A DNA stretch of 64,000 nt from Bacteroidales bacterium. Its GTDB lineage: Bacteria > Bacteroidota > Bacteroidia > Bacteroidales > UBA12077. Within the stretch, counting starts at the first letter, position 1, and every line of letters starts with the position of its first letter. Made by a program: the position numbers and the translations under genes. The stretch lies in assembly GCA_016342685.1 (NCBI GenBank), contig JAEINU010000001.1, forward strand, positions 1,332,933-1,396,932, written 5' to 3'. Below the pieces are notes generated by a model. It searched no databases, was not told where the DNA came from, and saw only the letters and a program-made list of their open reading frames with translations. Below are positions 588 to 26,258 of the stretch, one piece after another.

Positions 588-1958
588 ATGTTAAAAAAAG
601 GAAAGATATTAATTATTGATGACAACGAAGAACTCTTAATTGCTTTTAGATTTTTTTTATCGAAACATTTTGATAAGATTGAAACTATAAAAAATCCAAA
701 CCTTATTCATGAATGCATCCGTAAAGAAACGTATGATATTGTTCTGCTAGACATGAATTTTTCGGCAGGCGTTAATACCGGAAACGAAGGGATTTATTGG
801 ATGAAACAAATCCTAGAGAAAGACTCAAATGCTTCGGTAATTTTAATTACTGCATACGGAGATGTCGAGTTAGCAGTTAATGCAATGAAAGAAGGTGCTG
901 CCGATTTTATTCAAAAATCATGGGACGAAAAGAAAATTTTATCGACTATATTATCTGCTTACAATCTTCGTTTATCTAAGCTAAAAATTAAAACTCTTGA
1001 GCAAAAACAGAAACATTTAAGCGATAAAATCGATAGTAAATTTGATCATATAATTGGGGAATCAGATTCGATGAAATCTGTTTTTAATATTATAAATAAG
1101 GTTTCTGAAACGGATGCTAACATTCTAATTTTAGGCGAAAACGGAACAGGTAAAGAAGTGATTGCGCGTGAGATACACCGAAAATCAAAACGCAACAGTG
1201 AAGTTTTTGTAAGTGTTGATATAGGATCGTTGCAAGAAAATTTATTCGAAAGTGAATTATTCGGGCACGTTAAAGGAGCTTATACAGATGCAAAAGAAGA
1301 TCGCGTGGGGCGTTTTGAAATTGCATCGGGAGGCACTCTTTTTTTAGACGAAATTGGAAACCTACCTATGTCTTTACAATCGAAACTTTTGTCTGCAATT
1401 CAGAATAAAGAAATTTTCCGTATTGGATCAAATATGCCAATACCTGTAGATATTCGATTAATATGTGCTACCAATAAAAATCTAAACGATATGATTATTG
1501 AAGGTAACTTTCGTGAAGATTTACTTTACAGGATTAATACGATAAAAATTAATCTACCTTCTTTAAACGAACGTAGTAGCGACATTAAGCTATTAGCTAC
1601 TTTCTTTCTGAATAAATATGCTAATAAATACAATAAATCAGAACTTAAATTTAATCAGAATACAATTAATAACTTGTTACAACACTCATGGCCCGGTAAC
1701 ATTAGAGAGTTGCAACACACTATCGAAAAAGCTGTAATTTTGTGCGATGGAAACATCATTCTTAGTTCGCATTGCTGGCCCGATGGAGAACAAATCACTA
1801 AACAACTTATTGCCAATACCTTAAATTTAGATCTGAACGAAAAACTAATCATAGAAAAGGCTCTTCAAAAATATAAAGGAAACATAAGCAACGCTGCCAA
1901 AGAACTAGGCATAAACAGATCCACTTTATACAAAAAAATGGTAAAATATGATATTTAA
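588..1958 (+). CDS. Sigma-54-dependent response regulator (NtrC/AtoC family: REC + AAA+ + Fis-type HTH)
   Basis: REC domain (ILIIDDN...VLLDMNF). AAA+ Walker A GENGTGKE. GAFTGA-like loop GHVKGAYTDA. Walker B LFLDEIG. C-terminal HTH AAKELGINRSTLYKKM. Confidence 0.9.
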   Translation: MLKKGKILIIDDNEELLIAFRFFLSKHFDKIETIKNPNLIHECIRKETYDIVLLDMNFSAGVNTGNEGIYWMKQILEKDSNASVILITAYGDVELAVNAMKEGAADFIQKSWDEKKILSTILSAYNLRLSKLKIKTLEQKQKHLSDKIDSKFDHIIGESDSMKSVFNIINKVSETDANILILGENGTGKEVIAREIHRKSKRNSEVFVSVDIGSLQENLFESELFGHVKGAYTDAKEDRVGRFEIASGGTLFLDEIGNLPMSLQSKLLSAIQNKEIFRIGSNMPIPVDIRLICATNKNLNDMIIEGNFREDLLYRINTIKINLPSLNERSSDIKLLATFFLNKYANKYNKSELKFNQNTINNLLQHSWPGNIRELQHTIEKAVILCDGNIILSSHCWPDGEQITKQLIANTLNLDLNEKLIIEKALQKYKGNISNAAKELGINRSTLYKKMVKYDI

Positions 1959-3300
1959 ACGATATAGATTTCTAATCATCTTTCAAATAGTTTTTATTGC
2001 AATTACTACAGCCATTTTTTTCTGGACTCTCAATCAGGAATATATGTTAATTACAAGTTCGTCGCTTGTAATTATCTGGATATTGCAAATAGTATATTTA
2101 ATATGGTATCTACAAAAAATAAATCGAGACCTACTCAAGTTCTTTACTGCAATTCGCTACAACGATGTTTCAATCAATTTTAAAAACAAACAAGATACTG
2201 ACCCTTACTTTAAGGAACTATATAAAGAATTAACTAACATAATAAACGAACTATCTACAATAAGATCTGAAAAAGAAAGCGAACATCAGTATTTTCAAAA
2301 TACTGTAAAACATATAAATACAGGTATAATTGCTTTTGATAAAAAGGGGAAAATAGAAATCTGTAATAATGCGGCCTTAGAGCTTTTGAATTTAAATTCG
2401 ATAAAAACGATTTACGAAACAGATTCCTGCGCAAACGGATTATCAAAAACATTAATTGAGTTAAAACCAGGAAATCCAAAACTTCAAAAAATAAATCGTA
2501 AAGATGATATCTTACATTTATCGATAAAAGCTGCTAGCTTTAAAATTAATGAAAGAAGTATAAAACTAATTTCTTTGCAAAATATAAAACAAGAGATTGA
2601 TCGCAGTGAAGTAGATGCTTGGCAGAAACTCATTCGGGTTTTAACACATGAAATAATGAATTCGGTTAGTCCTATTAAACTATTGTCGGGCTCATTAATT
2701 GAACTATTCGAAGAAAATAATGTGATTAAGACAAGTGATGAAATTGATAATAAAACAATCGAAAATTCAGTTTTAGGCTTAAAAACAATACGCAAGCGTA
2801 GCGATGGATTGTCTACATTTGTTGATACGTATAAAAGCTTGACTCAAATTCCAAAAGTAAAATTTTCTGAGTTCAAGATAAAACAACTTTTCGATCATTT
2901 AGAAACCTTGTTAAACGATGAATTATTTTCTAAAAAAATCAATTTTACATGTATTTGTACACCTGTTGATCTTGTGTTAAATGCCGATGAAAAACTTATT
3001 GAACAAGTTTTAATTAACCTAATTAAAAATGCTTCAGAAGCTCTTGCTAAAATACAAAATCCAACCATAAAACTTGAGGCTAGTGTTATAAAAGATTTCA
3101 CATATATTTCGATTAGTGATAATGGAACAGGAGTCTCGTCGGAAATTCTTGAAAATATATTTATTCCTTTCTTTACAACAAAAGAAAAAGGCTCAGGTAT
3201 TGGTTTGAGCCTTTCTCGACAGATTATGCATTTACATAATGGAAGTATTTCAGTAAAATCTAATTCAGATATTGGAACGATCTTTACACTGCAATTTTAG
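1948..3300 (+). CDS. Sensor histidine kinase (NtrB-like partner of the sigma-54 regulator)
   Basis: Overlaps the upstream RR gene by 11 nt. Two N-terminal hydrophobic segments. H-box LTHEIMNSVSPI. HATPase boxes LINLIKNASEA, SDNGTGV, GSGIGLSLSRQIM. Confidence 0.9.
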   Translation: MIFKRYRFLIIFQIVFIAITTAIFFWTLNQEYMLITSSSLVIIWILQIVYLIWYLQKINRDLLKFFTAIRYNDVSINFKNKQDTDPYFKELYKELTNIINELSTIRSEKESEHQYFQNTVKHINTGIIAFDKKGKIEICNNAALELLNLNSIKTIYETDSCANGLSKTLIELKPGNPKLQKINRKDDILHLSIKAASFKINERSIKLISLQNIKQEIDRSEVDAWQKLIRVLTHEIMNSVSPIKLLSGSLIELFEENNVIKTSDEIDNKTIENSVLGLKTIRKRSDGLSTFVDTYKSLTQIPKVKFSEFKIKQLFDHLETLLNDELFSKKINFTCICTPVDLVLNADEKLIEQVLINLIKNASEALAKIQNPTIKLEASVIKDFTYISISDNGTGVSSEILENIFIPFFTTKEKGSGIGLSLSRQIMHLHNGSISVKSNSDIGTIFTLQF

Positions 3301-5844: not shown

Positions 5845-7224
5845 ATGAAAAAAATGAAAGGCACTTTGTTAATCGTAGACGATAACCAAGATGTATTAGA
5901 TGCTTTAAGTTTATTTATTGAAAATGATATTGAAAAAGTATTGTACTTAAATAATCCTAATTTAATTCCTGAATCATTACGGAAAAATAGTATTGATGTG
6001 GTTCTTTTAGACATGAACTTTTCAGCAGGAATAAATAGTGGAAATGAAGGCATTTTCTGGATGAAAGAAATTCTAAAGAATGATTCCAACATTTCGGTTA
6101 TTCCTATTACGGCTTATGGAGAAGTTCAACTTGCTGTAAATGCACTTAAAGAAGGGGCTTTTGATTTTGTTTTAAAACCTTGGGATAACGATAAATTACT
6201 ATCAACAATTAAAGCTGCCTTTAAGCTCCGACAATCGAAACAAAAAGTATCCGAACTTAAATTAAAAAATGAAACCCTAATTGAGGATACCAATAAAATA
6301 TATCCAGATATCAAAGGAACGTCCACTGCAATAAAAGAGATTCATCAATTAATAGATAAAGTAGCAAAAACAAATGCAAACATTCTGATATTAGGCGAAA
6401 ACGGCACTGGAAAAGAACTATTAGCACGTGAAATATATAAAAAGTCGGATAGAAAGAATGATATATTTACAAGTGTTGATTTAGGTTCGTTAAGCGAATC
6501 TTTGTTCGAAAGTGAATTGTTTGGTCATGAAAAAGGGGCTTTTACCGATGCTAAGAATCAAAAAATTGGACGTTTCGAAGCTGCGCACAGAGGAACCATT
6601 TTTTTAGATGAGATTGGCAATATTCCTTTATCACTGCAATCAAAATTATTATCGGCTATTCAAAATAAGGAAATCTTTAGAGTTGGTGCCTCTACCCCTG
6701 TTTCTATAGATATTAGATTGATTTGCGCAACAAATCAGAACTTAGAATCTATGGTAAATGAAGGCTTATTTAGAGAGGATTTATTTTATAGAATAAATAC
6801 CATACAAATTGATCTTCCGCCTTTAAGAAAACGAGAAAATGATGTTTGTCTACTTTCTGAGTTTTTTGTACAAAAATATACTTCGACATATAATAAACCG
6901 GAGCTAAAAATAACTCAAAATGCCCTCGATAAACTAAAATCACATTCTTGGCCGGGCAATATCAGAGAGCTGGAACACACCATTGAAAAAGCTGTAATTT
7001 TATCGGAAAATAAGGTCTTATCCGAAGATGATTTTCATTTCAGAAAATCTGAAAATACGAATCTAAATACATCGAAATCTGAAACTTTGGAAGAAATCGA
7101 GAAAAATGCGATCATAAAAGCAATTCAATTGTACAAAGGGAATCTTACCGAAGCAGCCAAAAAACTCGCTATTAGCCGACAAACAATGTATAATAAGATC
7201 AGCAAATACAACATTTCAATATAA
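5845..7224 (+). CDS. Sigma-54-dependent response regulator (paralog of 588-1958)
   Basis: Same domain order and motifs as 588-1958 (LLIVDDN, GENGTGKE, GHEKGAFTDA, IFLDEIG, AAKKLAISRQTMYNKI). By eye more than half of the residues are identical to the first copy. Confidence 0.9.
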   Translation: MKKMKGTLLIVDDNQDVLDALSLFIENDIEKVLYLNNPNLIPESLRKNSIDVVLLDMNFSAGINSGNEGIFWMKEILKNDSNISVIPITAYGEVQLAVNALKEGAFDFVLKPWDNDKLLSTIKAAFKLRQSKQKVSELKLKNETLIEDTNKIYPDIKGTSTAIKEIHQLIDKVAKTNANILILGENGTGKELLAREIYKKSDRKNDIFTSVDLGSLSESLFESELFGHEKGAFTDAKNQKIGRFEAAHRGTIFLDEIGNIPLSLQSKLLSAIQNKEIFRVGASTPVSIDIRLICATNQNLESMVNEGLFREDLFYRINTIQIDLPPLRKRENDVCLLSEFFVQKYTSTYNKPELKITQNALDKLKSHSWPGNIRELEHTIEKAVILSENKVLSEDDFHFRKSENTNLNTSKSETLEEIEKNAIIKAIQLYKGNLTEAAKKLAISRQTMYNKISKYNISI

Positions 7225-7234
7225 AAATTCTCGT

Positions 7235-8587
7235 ATGATTTATAAGAAATTATTCTTTCAGGTTGTGATTCGAGTTCTATTGTTATTAGGAAACTCTTTC
7301 TTGTTAATGTATTTGCATTTTCTGAACAAATACCCTGCCGGACAATTTAATTTGGTTTTGCTTTTGATTGCACAAACAGCTCTTTTGATTTATTATTTAA
7401 ATAGAACAAACAGAGATTTAGGGCACTTTTTTTCTTCTGTAACTAATAACGATTCAAGCATTGTTTTTGATTATGATAATAGAAATAAATCATTCTCGAA
7501 CTTATACAAGAATCTTAATAATGTAAATAAAGTTATTGAGCAGGCTCGATTAGAAAAAATTGGACAATTTGAATATTTAAAACAAGTTGTGGAAAACATT
7601 GGTGTTGGCATTTTATCCTTTAACACTGATTATAATGTTCAGTTTTTTAATCCTGCAGGTAAAGATATTTTAAAAATTAGAACGCTTAAATCAATTAACG
7701 AACTCGAAAGTATTTATCCGGGACTCGCACAAAAATTAAAGAAAATAAAAGCAAATCAACAACAGTTATTAACTATTAAAAGCAAGCAATACGAACTTAA
7801 CTTATCTGTAAAACTTGTTGAATTTGTAATTCAAAAAGCAACAATAAAGTTGTTTGCTTTTCAGAATATTCAAACTGAGCTTGAAACAAAAGAAGTTGAA
7901 TCGTGGCAAAAAATTATTCGTGTATTAACTCACGAAATAATGAATTCCGTTTCGCCAATTAACTCTGCAACAACATCGATAAGTCGATTATTCCTAGACG
8001 ATAACAAGCCAATTAATCCGAGTAATATTGATGAAGATGCAATAAATAAAACGCTAAAAGGAATGACAATAATTGAACAGCGTAGTTCCGGAATGCTTAA
8101 GTTCGTTCAGAAATTCAGGGATTTAACTTTACTTCCAGAACCTCAAAAAGAAATTGTACTAATTAAAGATCTTTATCAAACGCTGGAAACCTTATTTAAA
8201 ACGGATTCTGAGAATAAAAATATTGATATTATTTTCAATTCTACTCATTCTGCTTTAAGCATTAACGCTGATAAAACACAAATAGAACAGGTCCTTATTA
8301 ATTTATTAAAAAATTCGATTGAAAGTTTATCCCAGACTCCAAAACCCATGATAGTAATTTCATCATTTAAGAACAATCGAAACAATACGGTTATAGCCAT
8401 AAAAGATAATGGAGAAGGAATAAGTTCTGAAGTTTTCGATAATATTTTTACGCCATTCTTTACAACAAAGGTAAAAGGCTCAGGTATAGGTTTGAGTCTT
8501 TCTCGACAGATTATGCATTTACACAATGGTAATATTTCGGTAAAATCTGAACCAAATATTGAAACTGTTTTTACACTAACTTTTTAG
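7235..8587 (+). CDS. Sensor histidine kinase (paralog of 1948-3300)
   Basis: 450 aa, the same length as the first HK. Identical H-box LTHEIMNSVSPI and an identical C-terminal block GSGIGLSLSRQIMHLHNG.ISVKS. Confidence 0.9.
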   Translation: MIYKKLFFQVVIRVLLLLGNSFLLMYLHFLNKYPAGQFNLVLLLIAQTALLIYYLNRTNRDLGHFFSSVTNNDSSIVFDYDNRNKSFSNLYKNLNNVNKVIEQARLEKIGQFEYLKQVVENIGVGILSFNTDYNVQFFNPAGKDILKIRTLKSINELESIYPGLAQKLKKIKANQQQLLTIKSKQYELNLSVKLVEFVIQKATIKLFAFQNIQTELETKEVESWQKIIRVLTHEIMNSVSPINSATTSISRLFLDDNKPINPSNIDEDAINKTLKGMTIIEQRSSGMLKFVQKFRDLTLLPEPQKEIVLIKDLYQTLETLFKTDSENKNIDIIFNSTHSALSINADKTQIEQVLINLLKNSIESLSQTPKPMIVISSFKNNRNNTVIAIKDNGEGISSEVFDNIFTPFFTTKVKGSGIGLSLSRQIMHLHNGNISVKSEPNIETVFTLTF

Positions 8588-19224: not shown

Positions 19225-19896
19225 CTATTTTTCATTCCAATTTTTAACTTCAGTACGCAGCCAGTTAGCCCATTCATCAATCCCCTCCCCTGTTTTAGCG
19301 GTGATGGGTATCACTTTGATATTGGGATTTAGTTTTTTCACCCGTTCTTTCACGACCTCCAGATCAAAATCAAAAAAACCAATGGAATCCATTTTATTGA
19401 TCAATAAAACATCAACAATAGAAAACATTAAAGGGTATTTTAAAGGTTTGTCATCTCCTTCGGGAACGCTTAAAATCATAGCATTTTTTGATGCACCAGT
19501 ATCAAACTCTGCAGGACATACCAAATTTCCCACATTTTCTAAGATTGCAAAATCAACTCCTTCGGTACCTAGTCCTTCTAAACCTTGTTTGGTCATATCA
19601 GCATCTAAATGACACATTCCACCTGTATGCAATTGAATTACTTTAACTCCAGTTTTCGAAACCGTATTCGCATCAACATCAGAGTCAATATCCGCTTCTA
19701 AAACACCTATGCTCATTTCATCTTTTAAAGCTTCTATGGTTCTTAAAACGGTTGTTGTTTTACCTGAACCAGGTGATGACATGAGGTTCAATAAAAATGT
19801 CTTTTCTTTTTTTAAATCTGCCCTAAGCAAATCTGCTTGTCGGTCGTTATTTTCGAAAACGCTCTCCTTTATCTCAAGAATTTTATATGTATCCAT
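19225..19896 (-). CDS. hypB: Hydrogenase nickel incorporation GTPase HypB
   Basis: P-loop SSPGSGKTT. GGMCHLDADM (CH metal motif). ENVGNLVCP. NKMD guanine-specificity motif. Confidence 0.9.
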   Translation of the reverse strand: MDTYKILEIKESVFENNDRQADLLRADLKKEKTFLLNLMSSPGSGKTTTVLRTIEALKDEMSIGVLEADIDSDVDANTVSKTGVKVIQLHTGGMCHLDADMTKQGLEGLGTEGVDFAILENVGNLVCPAEFDTGASKNAMILSVPEGDDKPLKYPLMFSIVDVLLINKMDSIGFFDFDLEVVKERVKKLNPNIKVIPITAKTGEGIDEWANWLRTEVKNWNEK

Positions 19897-19919
19897 TTTC
19901 TGTTCTTCTTAATTTATGA

Positions 19920-20858
19920 TTATATATTTTCAGCAAAAACACGTTTATAGGCTTTTGTATCGGCAAATATTTCGTCTTTTAAGGGATTAAGCCTGTTTTT
20001 ACGAATCTTGTTAAACTGATAAACTACCAGGGCAAGGTTTGCGACCAATGCCAATAAACTAGCAATAAAAAATGCTTTTGGATTATGTGTAGTAGCAACA
20101 GGTGCTATGCGATCGGCAAACTGAGGGACAGTCATCACAAACATGATCCACAGAGCCAACGTGGAAGCGCGATGCTGTAACCAGGCTCCTTTTTTAATAA
20201 AAAATGCGGGGATAGTACATGAAAGAAGCAATGCAACTCCACAATAAAAGGAGTGGTCAGCTATACAGTTATAGGTATATGCAAAGTTCCACAGGTCATA
20301 AGCGATGATCCAGGGCCAGATCATATCAGGCCAAATCATATCTTTTGTCTTGTCTTTAGAAATAACAATACCGGCCCAACCACAAATAGTTATAATATTC
20401 AGCAGTCCAGCTATACCGTTCATGATATTCCACGGACCAGACATCACCCACAGATTATCAATAATGGCGCCATCCCATGCTCCATAAGAATAAACCTGGA
20501 AATCGCGTAAAACAGCCTCAAATATATTCACGGCAAGAATAAGTGGAGGGAACAATAAAAGCCCCTTCTTTTTACTTAGACCCGGAATATAACGTATGGC
20601 CATAAACCCTAAAACACCCGCCAGGGCCGAATATGTTTTTACCCAATTAAACCAGGTTCCCGTGCCGTATTCATTACCGGAGGCAGCAGTCTTTGGCCAA
20701 ACAAAGATTGTTAACACAAGAGGAATAATTAAAAATAGAACAATTCCTCCCCATTTTGTAGTACGACCTAATTCATTAAAAGCCATTAAAGCAAAAAGAA
20801 CCATGACCATAATAGCCCAACCTGAAAGACCAGGTACATCATAAAATAAACCCATCAT
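19920..20858 (-). CDS. Uncharacterised polytopic membrane protein, paralog B
   Basis: About nine hydrophobic segments. Shares the blocks GPWNIMNGIAG, GWAGI, KDMIW, WIIAYDLWNFAY, LLLSCTIPAFFIKKGAWLQHRA and NPLKDE with the upstream gene. Start moved to the ATGATG at 20858 (MMGLFYDVPG...), because the track's 44-aa extension has no counterpart in the paralog and would overlap it. Confidence 0.7.
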   Translation of the reverse strand: MMGLFYDVPGLSGWAIMVMVLFALMAFNELGRTTKWGGIVLFLIIPLVLTIFVWPKTAASGNEYGTGTWFNWVKTYSALAGVLGFMAIRYIPGLSKKKGLLLFPPLILAVNIFEAVLRDFQVYSYGAWDGAIIDNLWVMSGPWNIMNGIAGLLNIITICGWAGIVISKDKTKDMIWPDMIWPWIIAYDLWNFAYTYNCIADHSFYCGVALLLSCTIPAFFIKKGAWLQHRASTLALWIMFVMTVPQFADRIAPVATTHNPKAFFIASLLALVANLALVVYQFNKIRKNRLNPLKDEIFADTKAYKRVFAENI

Positions 20859-20927
20859 TTTATCCTTTAATTTATCTGTATTTTTTATTTCGTGCCATAA
20901 CAACACAAGCTTAAAAATGCATACAAG

Positions 20928-20955
20928 CTCCGCTTTGCTGATTTTCAAAGCGGAG
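20928..20955 (-). other. Intercistronic hairpin between the two paralogous membrane-protein genes
   Basis: The minus strand reads CTCCGCTTTG-AAAATCAG-CAAAGCGGAG, a perfect 10-bp GC-containing stem in the 112-nt gap. It may be an attenuator or processing site. Confidence 0.45.
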
Positions 20956-20970
20956 ATGTAAGCAGTACTT

Positions 20971-21888
20971 TTATTTGTTATCTTCCACAATCGATTGGTA
21001 GCTTTTTAAATCTGTATATACCTCATCTTTTAGCGGATTACGCTTAGATTTCACCATCTTATATACATGATAGATGACAAGAGCTATGTTTGCAATCAAA
21101 GCTATTGCGCTTATGGCAAATAGAGCAGTTGTATTTTGAGTTGATTTAACAGCAAATCGGGATGTATCGATGAATGCAGGAAAAGACATCACAAACATCA
21201 TCCAAACAGCCAATGTTTGTGCACGATGTTGTAACCATGCACCTTTTTTAATAAAAAAGGCAGGTATAGTACAAGAAAGTAACAATATTAAGCCTGCGTA
21301 AAAAGCATGGTCGCCAAGGGCATTATACACGTAAGCAAAATTCCATAGATCATAAGCGATAATCCAAAACCACAATTGGTCGGCCCATATCATATCTTTT
21401 TTCTTGCCCTTACTAATAAAAATACCAGCCCAGCCTGATATTGCCAATATATTTAAAATCCCGGCTATACCATTCATGATATTCCATGGACCACCAGTAA
21501 TCACAACACCATCGACAAAGCCATTTAGATTGTAACACTGAAAATCACGAATAACAGCTTCCATGATATTGATTGCCAATAGAAGAGCTGGTAACATCAA
21601 TATATACTTATTGTTGGCCCATCCTTTAATAAATCTTATGCCCATTATAATCAAGGTTATAGTTAACACAGAATATACTTTTGCATAATCAAACCAGGTA
21701 CCCACACTTGTTCCGGGGGTGGCAGTATGCGGCCAAACCATAAAAGCTAAATAAGTAGGTAATACTAAAAATAAGCCCAGCGCTATCCATTTATTTGCGC
21801 GTGCTATTTCATTAGCAAGCATTAATCCTGCTAATACGACAAATCCTATTAATATTGTTTGCCACGGTAATGATTCGAATAAATACAT
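20971..21888 (-). CDS. Uncharacterised polytopic membrane protein, paralog A
   Basis: 305 aa with about nine hydrophobic segments. It is the first gene after the FNR-like box and is colinear with paralog B along its whole length. Confidence 0.75.
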   Translation of the reverse strand: MYLFESLPWQTILIGFVVLAGLMLANEIARANKWIALGLFLVLPTYLAFMVWPHTATPGTSVGTWFDYAKVYSVLTITLIIMGIRFIKGWANNKYILMLPALLLAINIMEAVIRDFQCYNLNGFVDGVVITGGPWNIMNGIAGILNILAISGWAGIFISKGKKKDMIWADQLWFWIIAYDLWNFAYVYNALGDHAFYAGLILLLSCTIPAFFIKKGAWLQHRAQTLAVWMMFVMSFPAFIDTSRFAVKSTQNTTALFAISAIALIANIALVIYHVYKMVKSKRNPLKDEVYTDLKSYQSIVEDNK

Positions 21889-21915
21889 AACTTTATTTTT
21901 TAATTAAACATGACA

Positions 21916-21960
21916 CAAAAGTAGATGGTACGCGAATAAAAAAAGTTGAACTAGTTCAAC
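21916..21960 (-). promoter_or_regulatory. Operon promoter: FNR/CRP-like palindrome GTTGAACTAGTTCAAC (21945-21960) plus -7 box TACTTTTG (21916-21923)
   Basis: Perfect 16-bp palindrome, 21 nt upstream of a TAnnTTTG box, so its centre is near -41 (class II activator geometry). It lies 40 nt downstream of the stop of the Crp/Fnr-family regulator gene. Confidence 0.6.
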
Positions 21961-21999
21961 TTCGTACTCTGTTAATTAAAAAATTGCAGATCGTTCTTT

Positions 22000-22599
22000 T
22001 TAGCTTTTTAGCGAATTGTTTTTGAAGATTTTCTTTTTGAGCTTGCTGAGCCATTCTTTGCTTACTCCCATAAATTGAGCTATATATTTATCGGGTATCC
22101 TTCGCATATATACAGGATGCTGATGATATAAGAATAGTAAGAATTCCTCGGCATTTAATGACAGGCGCATGGCGCTAAACATATATAAATATTGAAAACT
22201 TCGTGCCGTAATTTTATGAAAAAGAACAGCAAATTCCTGAAAATTGCTAATTAAATATTCCAGTTGAGACTTAGAATATTCAATTACTTCGCAGTTTTCG
22301 ATAGCCTTTATTTGGAAATCGGAACTCTCCTCGGAAAAATAACTGGTAACAGACGATAGAAAAGCATAAACTTCATCTACGTAAAAACCCTGAACGATTT
22401 CTTTCCCATTTTGGTTTAGGAATGTTTGTATCAGACTGCCACTATTTATAAAATATCCATGGCGACACACCTGACCTGCTTTTAACAAATATTCGTTTTT
22501 CTTCAGGTGACGAATTTTCCCAAACTCCTGCAGCTGAGTCCACAATTCAGGACTCATTCTAATATCTTTATCTATAGCAAGCTTAAATTTTGAAAACAT
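22000..22599 (-). CDS. Crp/Fnr-family transcriptional regulator (cNMP-binding-like domain + C-terminal HTH)
   Basis: ~199 aa from the internal ATG at 22599 (MFSKFKLAID...). Beta-roll region YLLKAGQVCRHGYFINSGSL. C-terminal HTH DKYIAQFMGVSKEWLSKLKKK. There is no N-terminal Cys cluster, so it is not a canonical Fe-S FNR. Confidence 0.7.
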   Translation of the reverse strand: MFSKFKLAIDKDIRMSPELWTQLQEFGKIRHLKKNEYLLKAGQVCRHGYFINSGSLIQTFLNQNGKEIVQGFYVDEVYAFLSSVTSYFSEESSDFQIKAIENCEVIEYSKSQLEYLISNFQEFAVLFHKITARSFQYLYMFSAMRLSLNAEEFLLFLYHQHPVYMRRIPDKYIAQFMGVSKEWLSKLKKKIFKNNSLKS

Positions 22600-23429
22600 A
22601 AATATAGCTTTTATGGAGTAAATATAACATATTTTAATAAACCTCATAAAATACATGATTTTCTACCTATTACTTAAAAACCATCTATTTCTATTTTGTT
22701 AACAATATGAAAAAAATAACATTCAAGAGTCTTACATTATACTGTTTCCAAGAAATTATTTTCGACATTTATCTTTTTACTTTTTTTCATAAATGTCCAT
22801 TACAATCAATACTTCACACTTTTTTAATGAAATTACTAATTGTATTTAAATAGAATATCCAATTTGCGAATCACAAAAGCGTTGTAAAAACCTAAAACAA
22901 CTTTTATTCCCGTTGGTCATAAGAGAAGTTCTCATGAACGCAGTGAATAGTTTTCTATAACACTTGGCATACCAATCTCGATAAATTCAGAATCAAATCA
23001 CTACGAATAAAAACACTTTCACCATTAAACCGAAATACATATTCCATTTGCAATCCTTACAGAAGTACATCTAGATTGAGAAACTATATACTCATGTTTA
23101 CATGAATGACTATTTTTCAAGAAACATCTCTCACAGAAAAGCAGTAAATCATCTTATAAATTAAATTATAGATATATTCAAAAATCATATCATACTACCA
23201 ATATGATCAAAAATATTCGAGCCAAAATATTGTCCGATAACAAAAGAGACAAATATACAAGTGAAGGTTTTTTTTTATCAGCTACTTTCGTTTTCTTCGT
23301 GCAAATAAAAAAGGTCTTCTGTTTTTGGTAGTATTAACCAAAATTCGCATGAAACCTCGTTTTTTTTTAACACTATAAGACATCAAAAATTTCGGAATAA
23401 TTCACGATTAATTTAACATAAGACACTAT

Positions 23430-26258
23430 ATGGAAAACTTCTTTCCAAATCAAAGATGGACCAGTAAAGGTGAACCTGAACTTGGAGTAGGAATGGTTAC
23501 AGAAACTAGCAAAGGTCGGGTAAAGGTACATTTTCCAATATCCGATGAGACTCGACTGTATGCTATAGAAAACGCTCCCCTTCGCCGAGTACTTTTCAAG
23601 GCCGGGGATACAATCGTAGATACTAGTAAACGTCCATTGCTAATTGATCGTGTTGAACTGGATGGCGAGCTATTTTTATATTTTGGCCAAGACAGAACAT
23701 TATCTGAAGCAAACCTTGGAGATGTTTCAGTAAAACACGGTGTAGATGATCGACTTTCAGTTGGAGATGTTGATACACCAGAAATATTTACTTTACGCAG
23801 AAAGACACTTCAACATGATCATAGGCGGAGAATTTCTCCTGTAAATGGATTTGTAGGCGGACGAATCGATCTCATTCCTCATCAGCTTTACATTGCCCAT
23901 GAGGTGAGTACACGATATGCTCCCCGCGTTCTACTTTCAGACCAAGTTGGTCTTGGAAAAACAATAGAGGCTTGCTTAATTCTGCATCGCTTACTTTTAA
24001 GTGGACGAATTTCAAGAGTATTGATTCTTGTTCCTGATTCACTTGTTCACCAATGGTTTGTGGAAGTATTAAGAAGATTTAATCTATGGTTTCACATTTT
24101 TGATGAAGAGCGTTGCGCCGCAATTGACGATAGCGCACCAGAAGGAAACCCATTCCTAGACAATCAACTCATAATTTGTAGTACTGCTTTTTTGGCTAGT
24201 TCAGAAAATCGAGCACGGCAAGCTCTGTCGGCTAGTTGGGATATGCTTGTTGTGGATGAAGCTCACCACCTGAAATGGTCTGTTGATAAAGTGAGCCCGG
24301 AGTACGGTATTGTTGAACTATTGAGTAAAGTTGCTAAAGGATTACTACTACTAACAGCTACACCTGAGCAATTGGGTGCAGAAAGTCATTTTGCGCGACT
24401 TCGCTTGCTAGATCCAGACAGATATGCTGACTATGATGCTTTCAAAAACGAGCCACTAGATAATAAAGAAATTGCTAATATTGTCAAAAACCTGTCTTTA
24501 GGCAAGGCCATGCGAGTTAAGGATACAAAATTACTGGAATCGATTTTTGGCAAGGAAAGGATAGACTTATTAGTTAAAGGAGGAGATTCAGTACAAAATA
24601 ATCTCATAGAGGATTTGCTTGACCAACACGGACCGGGGAGAGTTGTTTTTCGAAATACCAGATCGGCAATGAACGGATTCCCAAAGCGAATACCCCACAT
24701 TGTTCCCATTGAAATAATGGAAGAGCATGATCTCTGGATAAAACGTTTGTCAAAAGAATTCTCAGTAGATATCAAAACTTCAGAGACTCCTTCTATTCAG
24801 CAAAAATTTTGGTTCACAGATGACCCTAGAGTTAACTGGCTTCTTAAAGCAATGGAAGATCTCAACCCAGCAAAAGTACTGCTCATATGTAAAACTAAAG
24901 AAAAGGTGCTTTCATTGGAAAGGGCATTAGCCAAACGTGTCAATTTTAAAATTGGTGTTTTTCACGAAGACCTCACTATTGTGCAGCGCGATAGGAATGC
25001 AGCTTGGTTCTCAGAACCAGAGGGGGCTAGATTACTCCTATGTTCTGAAATAGGGAGCGAGGGAAGAAATTTCCAATTCGCGCATCACCTCGTTCTATTC
25101 GACTTGCCATTTCATCCAGAATTATTGGAACAGCGAATTGGTCGCCTCGACCGTATTGGTCAGTCTTCGGCTATACATATTCATGTACCCTACCTTGTTG
25201 GAAGCCCTCAGGAAGTGCTTGTAAGGTGGTTTCACGAAGGATTAAATGCCTTTGGCGAAAACCTTGAGGGCGGAAATAAACTAGCTCAATTATTTAGCGA
25301 TCGCTTGTTGAATACTTCCTTATCCAACTCATCTCCAAATTCAGGAAAGCAACTCAAATCATTAATCGCCGACACAGCTATTTTCCAACAAGATCTCAAA
25401 AAAACTCTTGCAAACGGACGAGATCAATTGCTTGAAATGAATTCTTTTCGCCCAAAAATAGCCGAAAAACTGGTGAAACAAATCAGGGCAGAAGACCTCG
25501 ATATGAGTCTAGAAATATACATGACCAAGGTTTTTGAACATTTTAATATTGAAATGGAAGATCTTGCCCCCCGAACCTATTTATTGCATCCTTCGCAAAA
25601 AAACATAGATGTATTTCCATCTATTCCTGATACTGGTATTTCAATTACATTTGATCGAAAACGTGCACTTAGCAGAGAGGATATTAGTTTTATTAGTTGG
25701 GATCATCCAATGGTGACAGGTGCAATAGACATGGTATTAAGTTCAGGAACCGGAGGTGCAAGCTATGGAGTTCTCCGCGGAAGCGGAAATCCAGCGATTC
25801 TACTTGAGGTACTTTTTGTTCTTGAAACAGCGGGAGAACAAAGTGTTTTTGTTGACCGTTTTCTTCCTAAAACACTCTTGAGAGTGGTGGTTGATCATAC
25901 TGGAGATGAAGTAACCGATATTTATCCTGTTGAAGTATTCGAAAAACAGTTGATTTCTGGACAAATCAACGATATGATAAATAATGAGACCTTAATGGAT
26001 AATATCCTTCCGAATATGATCTCAACATCCTATGAAATTGCGGAAGCACTCGGATCGGCAGAAATTTCAAATGGACTGCAAAACATGAAGTTCACTACGA
26101 ATCACGAAATAGATAGACTTAAATCTCTACACAAAAAAAACAAGAATATTCGACCGGAAGAAATTCTGATTGCACTCGAAGAGCAGACAAACCTTGCAAG
26201 CCTTATTGGAAATGCAAGAATCAGGTTGGATGCACTCCAACTCATCCGCAAGGAGTAG
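23430..26258 (+). CDS. rapA: RNA polymerase-associated SNF2 ATPase RapA (HepA)
   Basis: Colinear with E. coli RapA from end to end: NQRWTSKGEPELGVG, LIPHQLYIAHEV, RVLLSDQVGLGKTIEA, DEAHHL, LLLTATPEQLG, HFARLRLLDPDR, RVVFRNTR, CSEIGSEGRNFQFA, DLPFHPELLEQRIGRLDRIGQ, ITFDRKRALSREDISFISWDHP, LDALQLI. Confidence 0.9.
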   Translation: MENFFPNQRWTSKGEPELGVGMVTETSKGRVKVHFPISDETRLYAIENAPLRRVLFKAGDTIVDTSKRPLLIDRVELDGELFLYFGQDRTLSEANLGDVSVKHGVDDRLSVGDVDTPEIFTLRRKTLQHDHRRRISPVNGFVGGRIDLIPHQLYIAHEVSTRYAPRVLLSDQVGLGKTIEACLILHRLLLSGRISRVLILVPDSLVHQWFVEVLRRFNLWFHIFDEERCAAIDDSAPEGNPFLDNQLIICSTAFLASSENRARQALSASWDMLVVDEAHHLKWSVDKVSPEYGIVELLSKVAKGLLLLTATPEQLGAESHFARLRLLDPDRYADYDAFKNEPLDNKEIANIVKNLSLGKAMRVKDTKLLESIFGKERIDLLVKGGDSVQNNLIEDLLDQHGPGRVVFRNTRSAMNGFPKRIPHIVPIEIMEEHDLWIKRLSKEFSVDIKTSETPSIQQKFWFTDDPRVNWLLKAMEDLNPAKVLLICKTKEKVLSLERALAKRVNFKIGVFHEDLTIVQRDRNAAWFSEPEGARLLLCSEIGSEGRNFQFAHHLVLFDLPFHPELLEQRIGRLDRIGQSSAIHIHVPYLVGSPQEVLVRWFHEGLNAFGENLEGGNKLAQLFSDRLLNTSLSNSSPNSGKQLKSLIADTAIFQQDLKKTLANGRDQLLEMNSFRPKIAEKLVKQIRAEDLDMSLEIYMTKVFEHFNIEMEDLAPRTYLLHPSQKNIDVFPSIPDTGISITFDRKRALSREDISFISWDHPMVTGAIDMVLSSGTGGASYGVLRGSGNPAILLEVLFVLETAGEQSVFVDRFLPKTLLRVVVDHTGDEVTDIYPVEVFEKQLISGQINDMINNETLMDNILPNMISTSYEIAEALGSAEISNGLQNMKFTTNHEIDRLKSLHKKNKNIRPEEILIALEEQTNLASLIGNARIRLDALQLIRKE

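What the first reader, a model, noticed from the sequence alone, without database searches (positions are those of the whole stretch)
21916..21960. Perfect 16-bp FNR/CRP-type palindrome at about -41, repeated identically (29 nt) at two promoters 6.8 kb apart
GAAGTTGAACTAGTTCAACTTTTTTTATT occurs on the minus strand at 21942-21963 and again at 15130-15151 (the second copy is also annotated as feature 15105-15148). Each copy lies 20-21 nt upstream of the same -7 box, CTACTTTTGT. The core TTGAA-N4-TTCAA is one position per half-site away from the FNR consensus TTGAT-N4-ATCAA. The palindrome centre falls about 29 nt upstream of the TAnnTTTG box. If the TSS lies ~7 nt after the box, the centre is near -41.5, the classical class II Crp/Fnr activation geometry. 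A Crp/Fnr-family gene without an Fe-S Cys cluster ends 40 nt upstream of one site and is the obvious candidate binder. I found no third copy in the window.
Basis: seen in the sequence. Interest (0 to 1): 0.6.

Follow-up and report, generated by a model that had tools for sequence, protein, structure and literature searches.

The report
Crp-like activator box at two promoters
The repeated palindrome is most likely the DNA docking site of the Crp/Fnr-type regulator encoded next to it; it sits at a fixed distance from Bacteroidota-type promoters, and the same gene-plus-site arrangement recurs in about forty related loci, so it is real but a familiar kind of switch.

Summary
GTTGAACTAGTTCAAC occurs exactly twice (15133-15148 and 21945-21960), inside an identical 29-mer. 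Each copy lies 20 or 21 nt upstream (minus strand) of TACTTTTG, a perfect Bacteroidota -7 box.

- In 42 of 48 loci whose regulator carries the recognition helix S-x-E-W-[LF]-[SC]-K, a TTGAA-N4-TTCAA box lies just behind the regulator gene. None of 28 loci with a different helix has one.
- Among 72 boxes with a -7 box, the spacing is 21 nt in 58. The box centre is then 29.5 bp from the TA, as in class II CRP/FNR promoters.
- The half-sites stay constant across the phylum, whereas the T-run is found only in this lineage. It is therefore a protein site and not primarily a terminator.

The regulator has a full Crp/Fnr fold, an FNR-like E-x-x-S-K helix, no Fe-S cysteine cluster and no cAMP-binding arginine.

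Targets in this lineage are two DUF5692 membrane proteins, a HypB / 899-aa IsrA-like flavoprotein / HypA cluster, a patatin-Omp85 lipase and TolC-type efflux pumps.

Activation, the transcription start sites and the effector are inferred, not shown. This is a new member of a known kind.

The parts
21942..21963 (-). 22-bp operator GAAGTTGAACTAGTTCAACTTT; the core perfect palindrome is 21945-21960. This is site 2, upstream of the DUF5692 / hypB / IsrA-like operon.
   Evidence: conserved in orthologous loci
21935..21944 (-). T7ATT tract directly after the palindrome (minus strand TTTTTTTATT). It occupies the place of the -33 element. Together with the hairpin it also looks like a weak terminator.
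   Evidence: conserved only in the close (SKEW-helix) lineage
21916..21923 (-). -7 box TACTTTTG (matches TAnnTTTG), 21 nt after the palindrome and 27 nt before the ATG at 21888
   Evidence: promoter consensus from PMC7366714
15130..15151 (-). 22-bp operator, identical to site 2; the core palindrome is 15133-15148. This is site 1, upstream of the patatin/Omp85 gene.
   Evidence: an orthologous patatin gene has its own site in L083
15105..15112 (-). -7 box TACTTTTG, 20 nt after the palindrome and 34 nt before the ATG at 15070
22000..22599 (-). Crp/Fnr-superfamily regulator, 199 aa, with recognition helix SKEWLSKLKKK. It is the candidate binder.
20971..21888 (-). DUF5692 membrane protein, first gene behind site 2
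   Evidence: the commonest gene behind the box in related loci
19920..20858 (-). Second DUF5692 paralogue (ATG at 20858)
   Evidence: (D1)
19225..19896 (-). HypB nickel GTPase
   Evidence: directly behind a box in L004 and L098
16494..19193 (-). 899-aa Fe-S/FAD oxidoreductase of NfnB/GltD type, IsrA-like by size, domains and neighbouring genes
   Evidence: PMC10134865
16068..16409 (-). HypA nickel chaperone
15302..16033 (-). DsbD_2-family membrane protein, last gene before site 1
12812..15070 (-). Patatin-like phospholipase fused to an Omp85-type barrel, 752 aa, the gene behind site 1
   Evidence: it shares an operon with two DUF5692 genes in L089 and L097

Best explanation
Each copy is a 22-bp Crp/Fnr-type operator (rAAGTTGAAyTArTTCAACTTt). 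A dimer of the 199-aa regulator encoded at 22000-22599 most likely binds it. The operator centre lies 29.5 bp (site 2) or 28.5 bp (site 1) upstream of the TA of a Bacteroidota -7 box. It covers the place where the -33 element would normally sit. The bound regulator therefore most likely recruits RNA polymerase in a class II manner. It would switch on two transcription units: DUF5692 x2 / hypB / IsrA-like reductase / hypA / DsbD_2-like, and the patatin-Omp85 lipase. Three things are shown here: the sequence anatomy, the conservation, and the co-occurrence of box and regulator type. Three things are inferred: binding by this protein, activation, and a start site about 5-7 nt after the box. The effector is unknown. 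It is not cAMP and the protein is not an Fe-S oxygen sensor. The target genes suggest a hydrophobic or unsaturated compound.
For: (1) The palindrome lies directly behind the orthologous regulator gene in L001-L019, L024 and L026, with regulator identity falling from 93% to about 37%. It is present in 42 of 48 evaluable loci whose regulator has the [ER]W[LFY][SC]K helix. It is present in 0 of 28 loci whose regulator has an ..LSR[IVL][RK] helix. (2) TTGAA-N4-TTCAA occurs 77 times in 1.2 Mb of loci, against 5-12 times for control palindromes of the same composition. Thirty-nine of the 77 have an exact TAnnTTTG 21-23 nt after the 14-mer (30 at exactly 22), and none of the control palindromes does. 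Among 72 boxes selected for a -7-like box 20-22 nt downstream, the spacing from the 16-mer is 21 nt in 58, 22 in 9 and 20 in 5. (3) The half-site sequence itself is invariant. The flanking T-run is present in only 37 of 72, and some sites overlap the regulator's stop codon. (4) The residue before the helix Glu varies together with the outer and central bases of the box. SKEW goes with G..CTAG..C, S[NQ]EW with A..TTAA..T, and S[PSA]EW mostly with C..TTAA..G. (5) The regulator has a full-length Crp/Fnr fold: AF2 pLDDT 90.5 and TM 0.82 to A. fischeri FNR. (6) Independent metagenome contigs show the same box in front of DUF5692, hypB/IsrA-like and patatin genes. (7) No TTG or TTTG stands at the -33 position of these promoters, as read directly from the sequence.
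Against: There are no binding, transcription start or expression data. A site that overlaps the -33 region could also repress. On the minus-strand RNA the palindrome plus U7 folds as a 9-bp hairpin with a U tail, 39 nt after the regulator's stop codon. A terminator role in this lineage is therefore not excluded. Pfam does not detect a Crp-type HTH. The loci are phylogenetically related, so the counts overstate the number of independent observations.
Confidence: 0.75

Rival explanations
1. The protein and site are as proposed, but the regulator is a repressor. By sitting on the -33 region it blocks RNA polymerase until an effector releases it.
For: The operator overlaps the -33 position. Targets include efflux pumps and detoxification-type enzymes. 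By general knowledge, such genes are often derepressed by their substrates.
Against: The 21-nt spacing is kept across different target genes and across families of the phylum. That is expected for face-of-helix contact with polymerase and is not needed for occlusion. No -33 TTG is present. By established knowledge, Crp/Fnr proteins centred near -41.5 are typically activators.
Confidence: 0.15
2. The element is mainly an intrinsic terminator (hairpin plus U7) that ends the regulator transcript and the upstream operon. Its nearness to promoters is incidental.
For: The RNA hairpin has 9 bp followed by U7. MFE is -9.8 to -10.9 kcal/mol in a 51-nt context, with z of -2.6 to -3.1. In 56 of 72 cases a co-oriented gene lies upstream. 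The T-run is well kept within the close lineage.
Against: The stem has only 2 G-C pairs and the terminator scan did not call it. The stem sequence is invariant instead of changing by compensatory substitutions. The T-run is missing in 35 of 72 sites, for example in L007, L011, L012, L018 and most sites of the distantly related loci. Six sites have a divergent gene upstream. The fixed spacing to the -7 box and the link to the regulator's helix type are unexplained by termination. A secondary insulating role in this lineage remains possible, at roughly 0.25.
Confidence: 0.05
3. The box is bound by another Crp/Fnr protein encoded elsewhere in the genome, such as a true oxygen-sensing FNR, and not by the adjacent gene product.
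For: TTGA-N6-TCAA is the generic FNR/FixK core (established knowledge). Only 64 kb of the genome was visible.
Against: Box and regulator gene are adjacent in 42 of 48 loci. The box is absent next to regulators with another helix. The bases of the box vary together with a helix residue.
Confidence: 0.04
4. It is a chance repeat or a dispersed or mobile repeat with no regulatory role.
For: The two copies are identical over 29 nt, as recently copied DNA would be. Near-identical promoter cassettes also recur within L008.
Against: The expected number of chance copies is 2e-5. There are only two copies in the window. All related copies sit in front of genes at a fixed promoter distance. There is no Rfam match.
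Confidence: 0.01

Closest known systems
FNR/FixK-type boxes at class II promoters (E. coli FNR, TTGAT-N4-ATCAA centred at -41.5)
   Same: The layout is the same 22-bp palindrome with a TTGA...TCAA core. The distance from the box centre to the TA of the -10-like element is the same, 29.5 bp. The recognition helix E-x-x-S-K resembles FNR's E-x-x-S-R. The full-length fold matches, with TM 0.82.
   Different: The fifth base of each half-site differs (A/T swapped). There is no N-terminal Cys cluster, so this is not an Fe-S oxygen sensor. The promoter is of the Bacteroidota TAnnTTTG type, not -35/-10. The modelled protein ends with the recognition helix.
Bacteroides Crp-like global regulator BT4338 (Cur), predicted motif wwwTATGTTnTAnAACATAwww (PMC3878776)
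   Same: It is from the same phylum and the same superfamily. Its motif is also a 22-bp palindrome with an nTAn centre, and it was also found by phylogenetic footprinting.
   Different: The half-site differs (ATGTT versus GTTGAA). It is a global sugar regulon with a site upstream of its own gene. Here the regulon is local or small and the site lies downstream of the regulator gene.
E. coli CRP (TGTGA-N6-TCACA, cAMP)
   Same: The fold, the dimeric palindrome recognition and the class II geometry are the same.
   Different: The half-site differs. The cAMP-phosphate residues R82/S83 align to S/D (alignment), so cAMP is an unlikely ligand.
PDB 3dn7, cyclic-nucleotide-binding regulatory protein of Cytophaga hutchinsonii (structural genomics, no known function)
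   Same: It is the closest solved relative over the full length (E 1.7e-27). It is a short Bacteroidota Crp-like protein.
   Different: Its helix is TPEYLSEIRKK, not S-x-E-W-L-S-K. No DNA site is known for it.
isr (putative isoprene reductase) gene clusters, IsrA with HypA and HypB, neighbours DUF5692 and TetR (PMC10134865)
   Same: The target operon here has the same parts: an 899-aa (versus 901-aa) Fe-S flavoprotein, hypA, hypB and DUF5692.
   Different: The regulator here is Crp-like, not TetR. Direct sequence identity to IsrA was not measured, and the substrate is unknown.

Membership tests
Crp/Fnr superfamily transcription factor | N-terminal cNMP-binding-type beta-roll | tested here: met
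   PF00027, E 3.5e-9; the profile hits CRP structures at 1e-5
Crp/Fnr superfamily transcription factor | Long dimerisation helix followed by a C-terminal helix-turn-helix, seen in the full-length fold | tested here: met
   AF2 model with pLDDT 90.5 and helices 121-147, 170-177 and 181-198. Foldseek gives TM 0.82 to FNR and about 0.7 to CRP, Vfr and GlxR over about 195-200 columns. Pfam HTH_Crp_2 was not detected.
Crp/Fnr superfamily operator | Palindrome of two 5-bp half-sites within a 22-bp site, next to the regulated promoter | tested here: met
FNR proper (oxygen sensor) | Cys cluster for a [4Fe-4S] centre (three N-terminal Cys plus one central Cys) | tested here: not met
   The protein starts MFSKFK. 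Only C45 and C103 are conserved, and C103 aligns with the ordinary Cys of CRP.
FNR proper (oxygen sensor) | Recognition helix E-x-x-S-R and box TTGAT-N4-ATCAA | tested here: inconclusive
   The helix is E-W-L-S-K (FNR sequence from memory). The box matches 4 of 5 bases per half-site.
CRP proper (cAMP receptor) | cAMP-contacting R82/S83 and box TGTGA-N6-TCACA | tested here: not met
   These residues align to S and D. No TGTGA-N4-TCACA was found in any locus; the N6 spacing named in this feature was not itself scanned.
Class II activator-dependent promoter | Activator centred near -41.5, overlapping the upstream promoter element | tested here: inconclusive
   The centre is 29.5 bp from the TA of the -7 box in 58 of 72 sites, and no -33 TTG is present. 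The start site was not mapped.
Class II activator-dependent promoter | Transcription depends on the bound activator | not testable with these tools
   This needs a mutant, a reporter or in vitro transcription.
Intrinsic (Rho-independent) terminator | Stable G+C-rich hairpin followed by a U-tract, conserved as a structure | tested here: not met
   The stem has 2 G-C pairs and the scan did not call it. The sequence is conserved without compensatory change, and the U-tract is missing in 35 of 72 sites.
Bacteroides BT4338/Cur regulon | Motif TATGTTnTAnAACATA | tested here: not met
   The half-site is different (one search compared).

The most novel reading that the evidence does not exclude
The window shows one member of a phylum-wide, so far undescribed subfamily of short Bacteroidota Crp-like regulators. 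Their recognition helix is S-x-E-W-[LF]-[SC]-K-L-K-K, and the modelled window protein ends with that helix. Members appear to use a TTGAA-N4-TTCAA box placed 21 bp (in 58 of 72 sites; 20-22 overall) upstream of TAnnTTTG, usually right behind their own gene. This would be the general way class II activation is built on the unusual sigma-ABfr promoter. Paralogues would be told apart by the outer and central bases of the box, read by the residue before the helix Glu. In this lineage the regulator would couple an unsaturated lipid or hydrocarbon signal to a regulon of a nickel-dependent IsrA-like C=C reductase, DUF5692 membrane proteins, a patatin lipase and efflux pumps.
Probability: 0.45. Interest if true: 0.7.

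Novelty: new member of a known kind. Interest (0 to 1): 0.5.

Why it matters
Few activator sites in Bacteroidota have been placed relative to the TAnnTTTG/-33 promoter. This element offers a sharply defined, testable example. It has a known candidate protein, a 22-bp site and a spacing of 21 bp in 58 of 72 sites, seen in families from Salinivirgaceae to Saprospiraceae and Flavobacteriaceae. It also gives a regulatory handle on IsrA-type HypA/HypB-dependent reductase clusters and on DUF5692, both of which have poorly understood functions. Identifying the regulator's ligand could reveal the substrate of that pathway.

Tried and rejected
- An exact-protein look-up of the first DUF5692 gene found no source contig.
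- The sigma-70 promoter scan is uninformative for this phylum, and the terminator scan did not call the element.
- Rfam gave no hit in 12000-24000.
- Full-text searches for the motif strings found nothing. A CRP/FNR superfamily survey gives no Bacteroidetes-specific motif.
- A weak box-like match at 20935-20948 was rejected. It is the loop and stem of a separate inverted repeat between the two DUF5692 genes and has a poor -7 box.
- An oxygen-sensing FNR was rejected because there is no Cys cluster. A cAMP-CRP was rejected because there is no R82/S83.
- Conserved C45 and C103 were considered as a thiol sensor and dropped. C103 aligns with a Cys also present in CRP, and both Cys are also present in 3dn7.
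- The metagenome pattern scan returned only 23 contigs. That was enough to confirm the regulon but not to complete it.

Full report
**The observation**

The + strand carries AATAAAAAAAGTTGAACTAGTTCAACTTC at 15123-15151 and at 21935-21963. The perfect 16-bp palindrome GTTGAACTAGTTCAAC lies at 15133-15148 and 21945-21960. A search allowing 3 mismatches finds only these two copies. From base composition (31% G+C), 2e-5 exact copies of the 16-mer and 3e-7 identical 29-mer pairs are expected.

Read on the minus strand, each palindrome is followed by TTTTTTTATT. After 21 nt (site 2) or 20 nt (site 1) comes TACTTTTG, at 21916-21923 and 15105-15112. This is a perfect match to the Bacteroidota -7 consensus TAnnTTTG (PMC7366714). 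ATG codons follow 27 and 34 nt later, at 21888 and 15070.

**The surrounding genes**

All of these genes are on the minus strand.
- 22000-22599: a 199-aa protein with a cNMP-binding domain.
- Site 2.
- 20971-21888 and 19920-20858: two DUF5692 membrane proteins.
- 19225-19896: HypB.
- 16494-19193: an 899-aa Fe-S/FAD oxidoreductase of the NfnB/GltD type.
- 16068-16409: HypA.
- 15302-16033: a DsbD_2-family membrane protein.
- Site 1.
- 12812-15070: a patatin-like phospholipase fused to an Omp85-type barrel.

The only paper in the library that mentions DUF5692 is the one describing the putative isoprene reductase IsrA. IsrA is 901 aa. Its homologues are neighbours of HypA (frequency 0.73), HypB (0.56), DUF5692 (0.40) and TetR (0.21) (PMC10134865). 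By size, domains and neighbours, the operon behind site 2 is a cluster of that type. I did not measure direct sequence identity to IsrA. Solved structures cover only residues about 350-835 of the 899-aa protein.

**The regulator**

It has many close relatives (65-99% identity) in Bacteroidales metagenome genomes such as Salinivirgaceae and Prolixibacteraceae. Its closest solved relative is 3dn7, a Cytophaga protein of unknown function (E 1.7e-27). An AlphaFold model built on the family alignment is confident (pLDDT 90.5). The model matches full-length FNR (TM 0.82), Vfr, GlxR and CRP.

The family has no N-terminal cysteine cluster. The residues that contact cAMP phosphate in CRP align to Ser and Asp. 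BLASTP against E. coli FNR aligns E182, S185 and K186 of the helix SKEWLSKLKKK with FNR E209, S212 and R213. By established knowledge, these FNR residues read the TTGA half-site. The protein is therefore a Crp/Fnr-superfamily member with an FNR-like DNA-reading helix. It is neither FNR nor CRP in what it senses.

**Comparative test**

I fetched 78 loci from species-representative genomes that encode relatives of the regulator, each with up to 10 kb of flank on either side. The palindrome, with at most 3 mismatches, lies directly behind the regulator gene in L001-L019, L024 and L026. Regulator identity across these falls from 93% to about 37%.

In the 1.2 Mb of loci, TTGAA-N4-TTCAA occurs 77 times. 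Control palindromes of the same composition occur 5-12 times. Thirty-nine of the 77 have an exact TAnnTTTG 21-23 nt after the 14-mer, 30 of them at exactly 22. None of the control palindromes does.

Among 72 boxes selected for a -7-like box 20-22 nt downstream, the spacing from the 16-mer is 21 nt in 58, 22 in 9 and 20 in 5.

The loci split cleanly by the regulator's recognition helix. Forty-two of 48 with [ER]W[LFY][SC]K have the box within -30 to +200 nt of the stop codon. None of 28 with ..LSR[IVL][RK] does. The nominal Fisher p is 3e-15, but the loci are related, so this overstates independence.

The residue before the helix Glu varies together with the outer and central bases of the box.
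- SKEW goes with G-TTGAA-CTAG-TTCAA-C.
- S[NQ]EW, in Tannerellaceae, goes with A-...TTAA...-T.
- S[PSA]EW goes mostly with C-...TTAA...-G.

These results tie the box to the adjacent protein.

**Protein site or RNA hairpin?**

On the minus-strand RNA the element folds as a 9-bp hairpin followed by U7. It lies 39 nt after the regulator's stop codon, so a terminator is a fair rival. Several observations count against it as the main function.
- The stem has two G-C pairs, and the terminator scan did not call it.
- The stem sequence is invariant across the phylum instead of changing by compensation.
- The T-run is present in only 37 of 72 sites, essentially only in the close lineage.
- Some boxes overlap the regulator's stop codon, and six have a divergent gene upstream.
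- A terminator would not need a fixed distance to the next -7 box, nor would it track the regulator's helix type.

A secondary insulating role in this lineage remains possible.

**Geometry and mechanism**

The palindrome centre is 29.5 bp from the TA of TAnnTTTG. By established knowledge, that equals the distance from -41.5 to T-12 of the -10 hexamer in E. coli class II CRP/FNR promoters. If the box spans about -11 to -4, the centre falls at about -40.5, and at -39.5 for site 1. The 22-bp site then covers the -33 position. No TTG or TTTG is found there.

The constant spacing in front of unrelated genes and in distant families argues for a contact with polymerase on one face of the helix. That points to activation rather than simple occlusion. 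This step is an inference. No transcription start or expression data exist for it.

**Regulon**

In orthologous loci and in 23 independent metagenome contigs, the box precedes the following genes.
- DUF5692 genes, which is the most common case.
- hypB / IsrA-like / hypA (L004, L098), or the second DUF5692 followed by these genes (L001, L079).
- The patatin-Omp85 gene, with its own box in L083. In L089 and L097 it shares an operon with two DUF5692 genes.
- TolC / HlyD / ABC-2 efflux systems (L007; by gene sizes also L008, L013, L024).
- An OYE-type flavoprotein (L008).
- An outer-membrane barrel (L011).
- A glyoxalase-fold gene, second gene of the DUF5692 unit in L001.

More distant subfamily members sit before DUF5692, TolC-type pumps, an RPE65-type oxygenase, DAPG-hydrolase-like enzymes, an isochorismatase and further regulators of the same kind.

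The common theme is handling of hydrophobic or unsaturated compounds. That the effector is such a compound is a guess.

**Comparison with known systems**

The box belongs to the FNR/FixK TTGA-N6-TCAA class but differs at the fifth base of each half-site. The nearest published Bacteroidota case is the predicted BT4338 (Cur) motif TATGTTnTAnAACATA (PMC3878776). It has the same 22-bp layout but different half-sites. Searches for the present motif in the paper library found nothing. A database description that is not in the library cannot be excluded.

**Verdict**

The feature is real and strongly non-random. It is best read as the operator of the neighbouring Crp-like regulator in a class II-like position. 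The kind of element is well known. The subfamily, its box, its fixed placement on Bacteroidota promoters and its link to IsrA-type clusters appear undescribed.

Noticed in passing
window 15302-21888 (-): The gene set is DUF5692 x2, hypB, an 899-aa NfnB/GltD-like Fe-S flavoprotein, hypA and a DsbD_2-family membrane protein. It matches the signature reported for homologues of the putative nickel-dependent isoprene reductase IsrA (PMC10134865). No solved structure covers the first ~350 or last ~65 residues of the 899-aa protein.
   Followed up: partly
window 16437-16468: A 14-bp-stem hairpin (GAAGATCAGGAAAC...GTTTCCTGATCTTT) lies between the IsrA-like gene and hypA. Its T-tail is on the + strand, which is antisense to the operon. 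Its role is unknown.
   Followed up: no
window 20929-20954: An inverted repeat TCCGCTTTG / CAAAGCGGA lies in the 112-nt gap between the two DUF5692 genes. It may be an internal attenuator or a processing site.
   Followed up: no
window 1092-3300 and 6352-8587: There are diverged duplicated segments (72-79% identity) about 5.26-5.29 kb apart, with one exact 26-mer at 3211 and 8498. They are probably tandem paralogous gene sets.
   Followed up: no
window 23430-26258 (+): A RapA-like SNF2 helicase (RNA polymerase recycling factor) is encoded about 830 nt beyond the start codon of the regulator gene, on the opposite strand.
   Followed up: no
window 22000-22599 (-); model m7037f5764747: The regulator model ends with the recognition helix (residues 181-198). 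It lacks the C-terminal strands seen in CRP, and Pfam detects only the cNMP-binding domain. The DNA-binding domain is a shortened variant.
   Followed up: partly
L032, L033, L038 (whole loci): These loci hold arrays of several paralogous regulators with the EW-type helix. Each is followed by its own TTGAA-N4-TTCAA promoter with different outer bases. One box precedes another regulator gene (L033 9240-9851). This suggests cascades or cross-talk.
   Followed up: partly
L008 11625 and 14184; window sites 1 and 2: Within a single locus (L008, and this window), the promoters carrying the box are nearly identical over 30-50 nt. The conserved stretches include TTACGAA upstream of the box and cATTGTTTAA after the -7 box. 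The whole promoter seems to have been copied as a cassette.
   Followed up: partly
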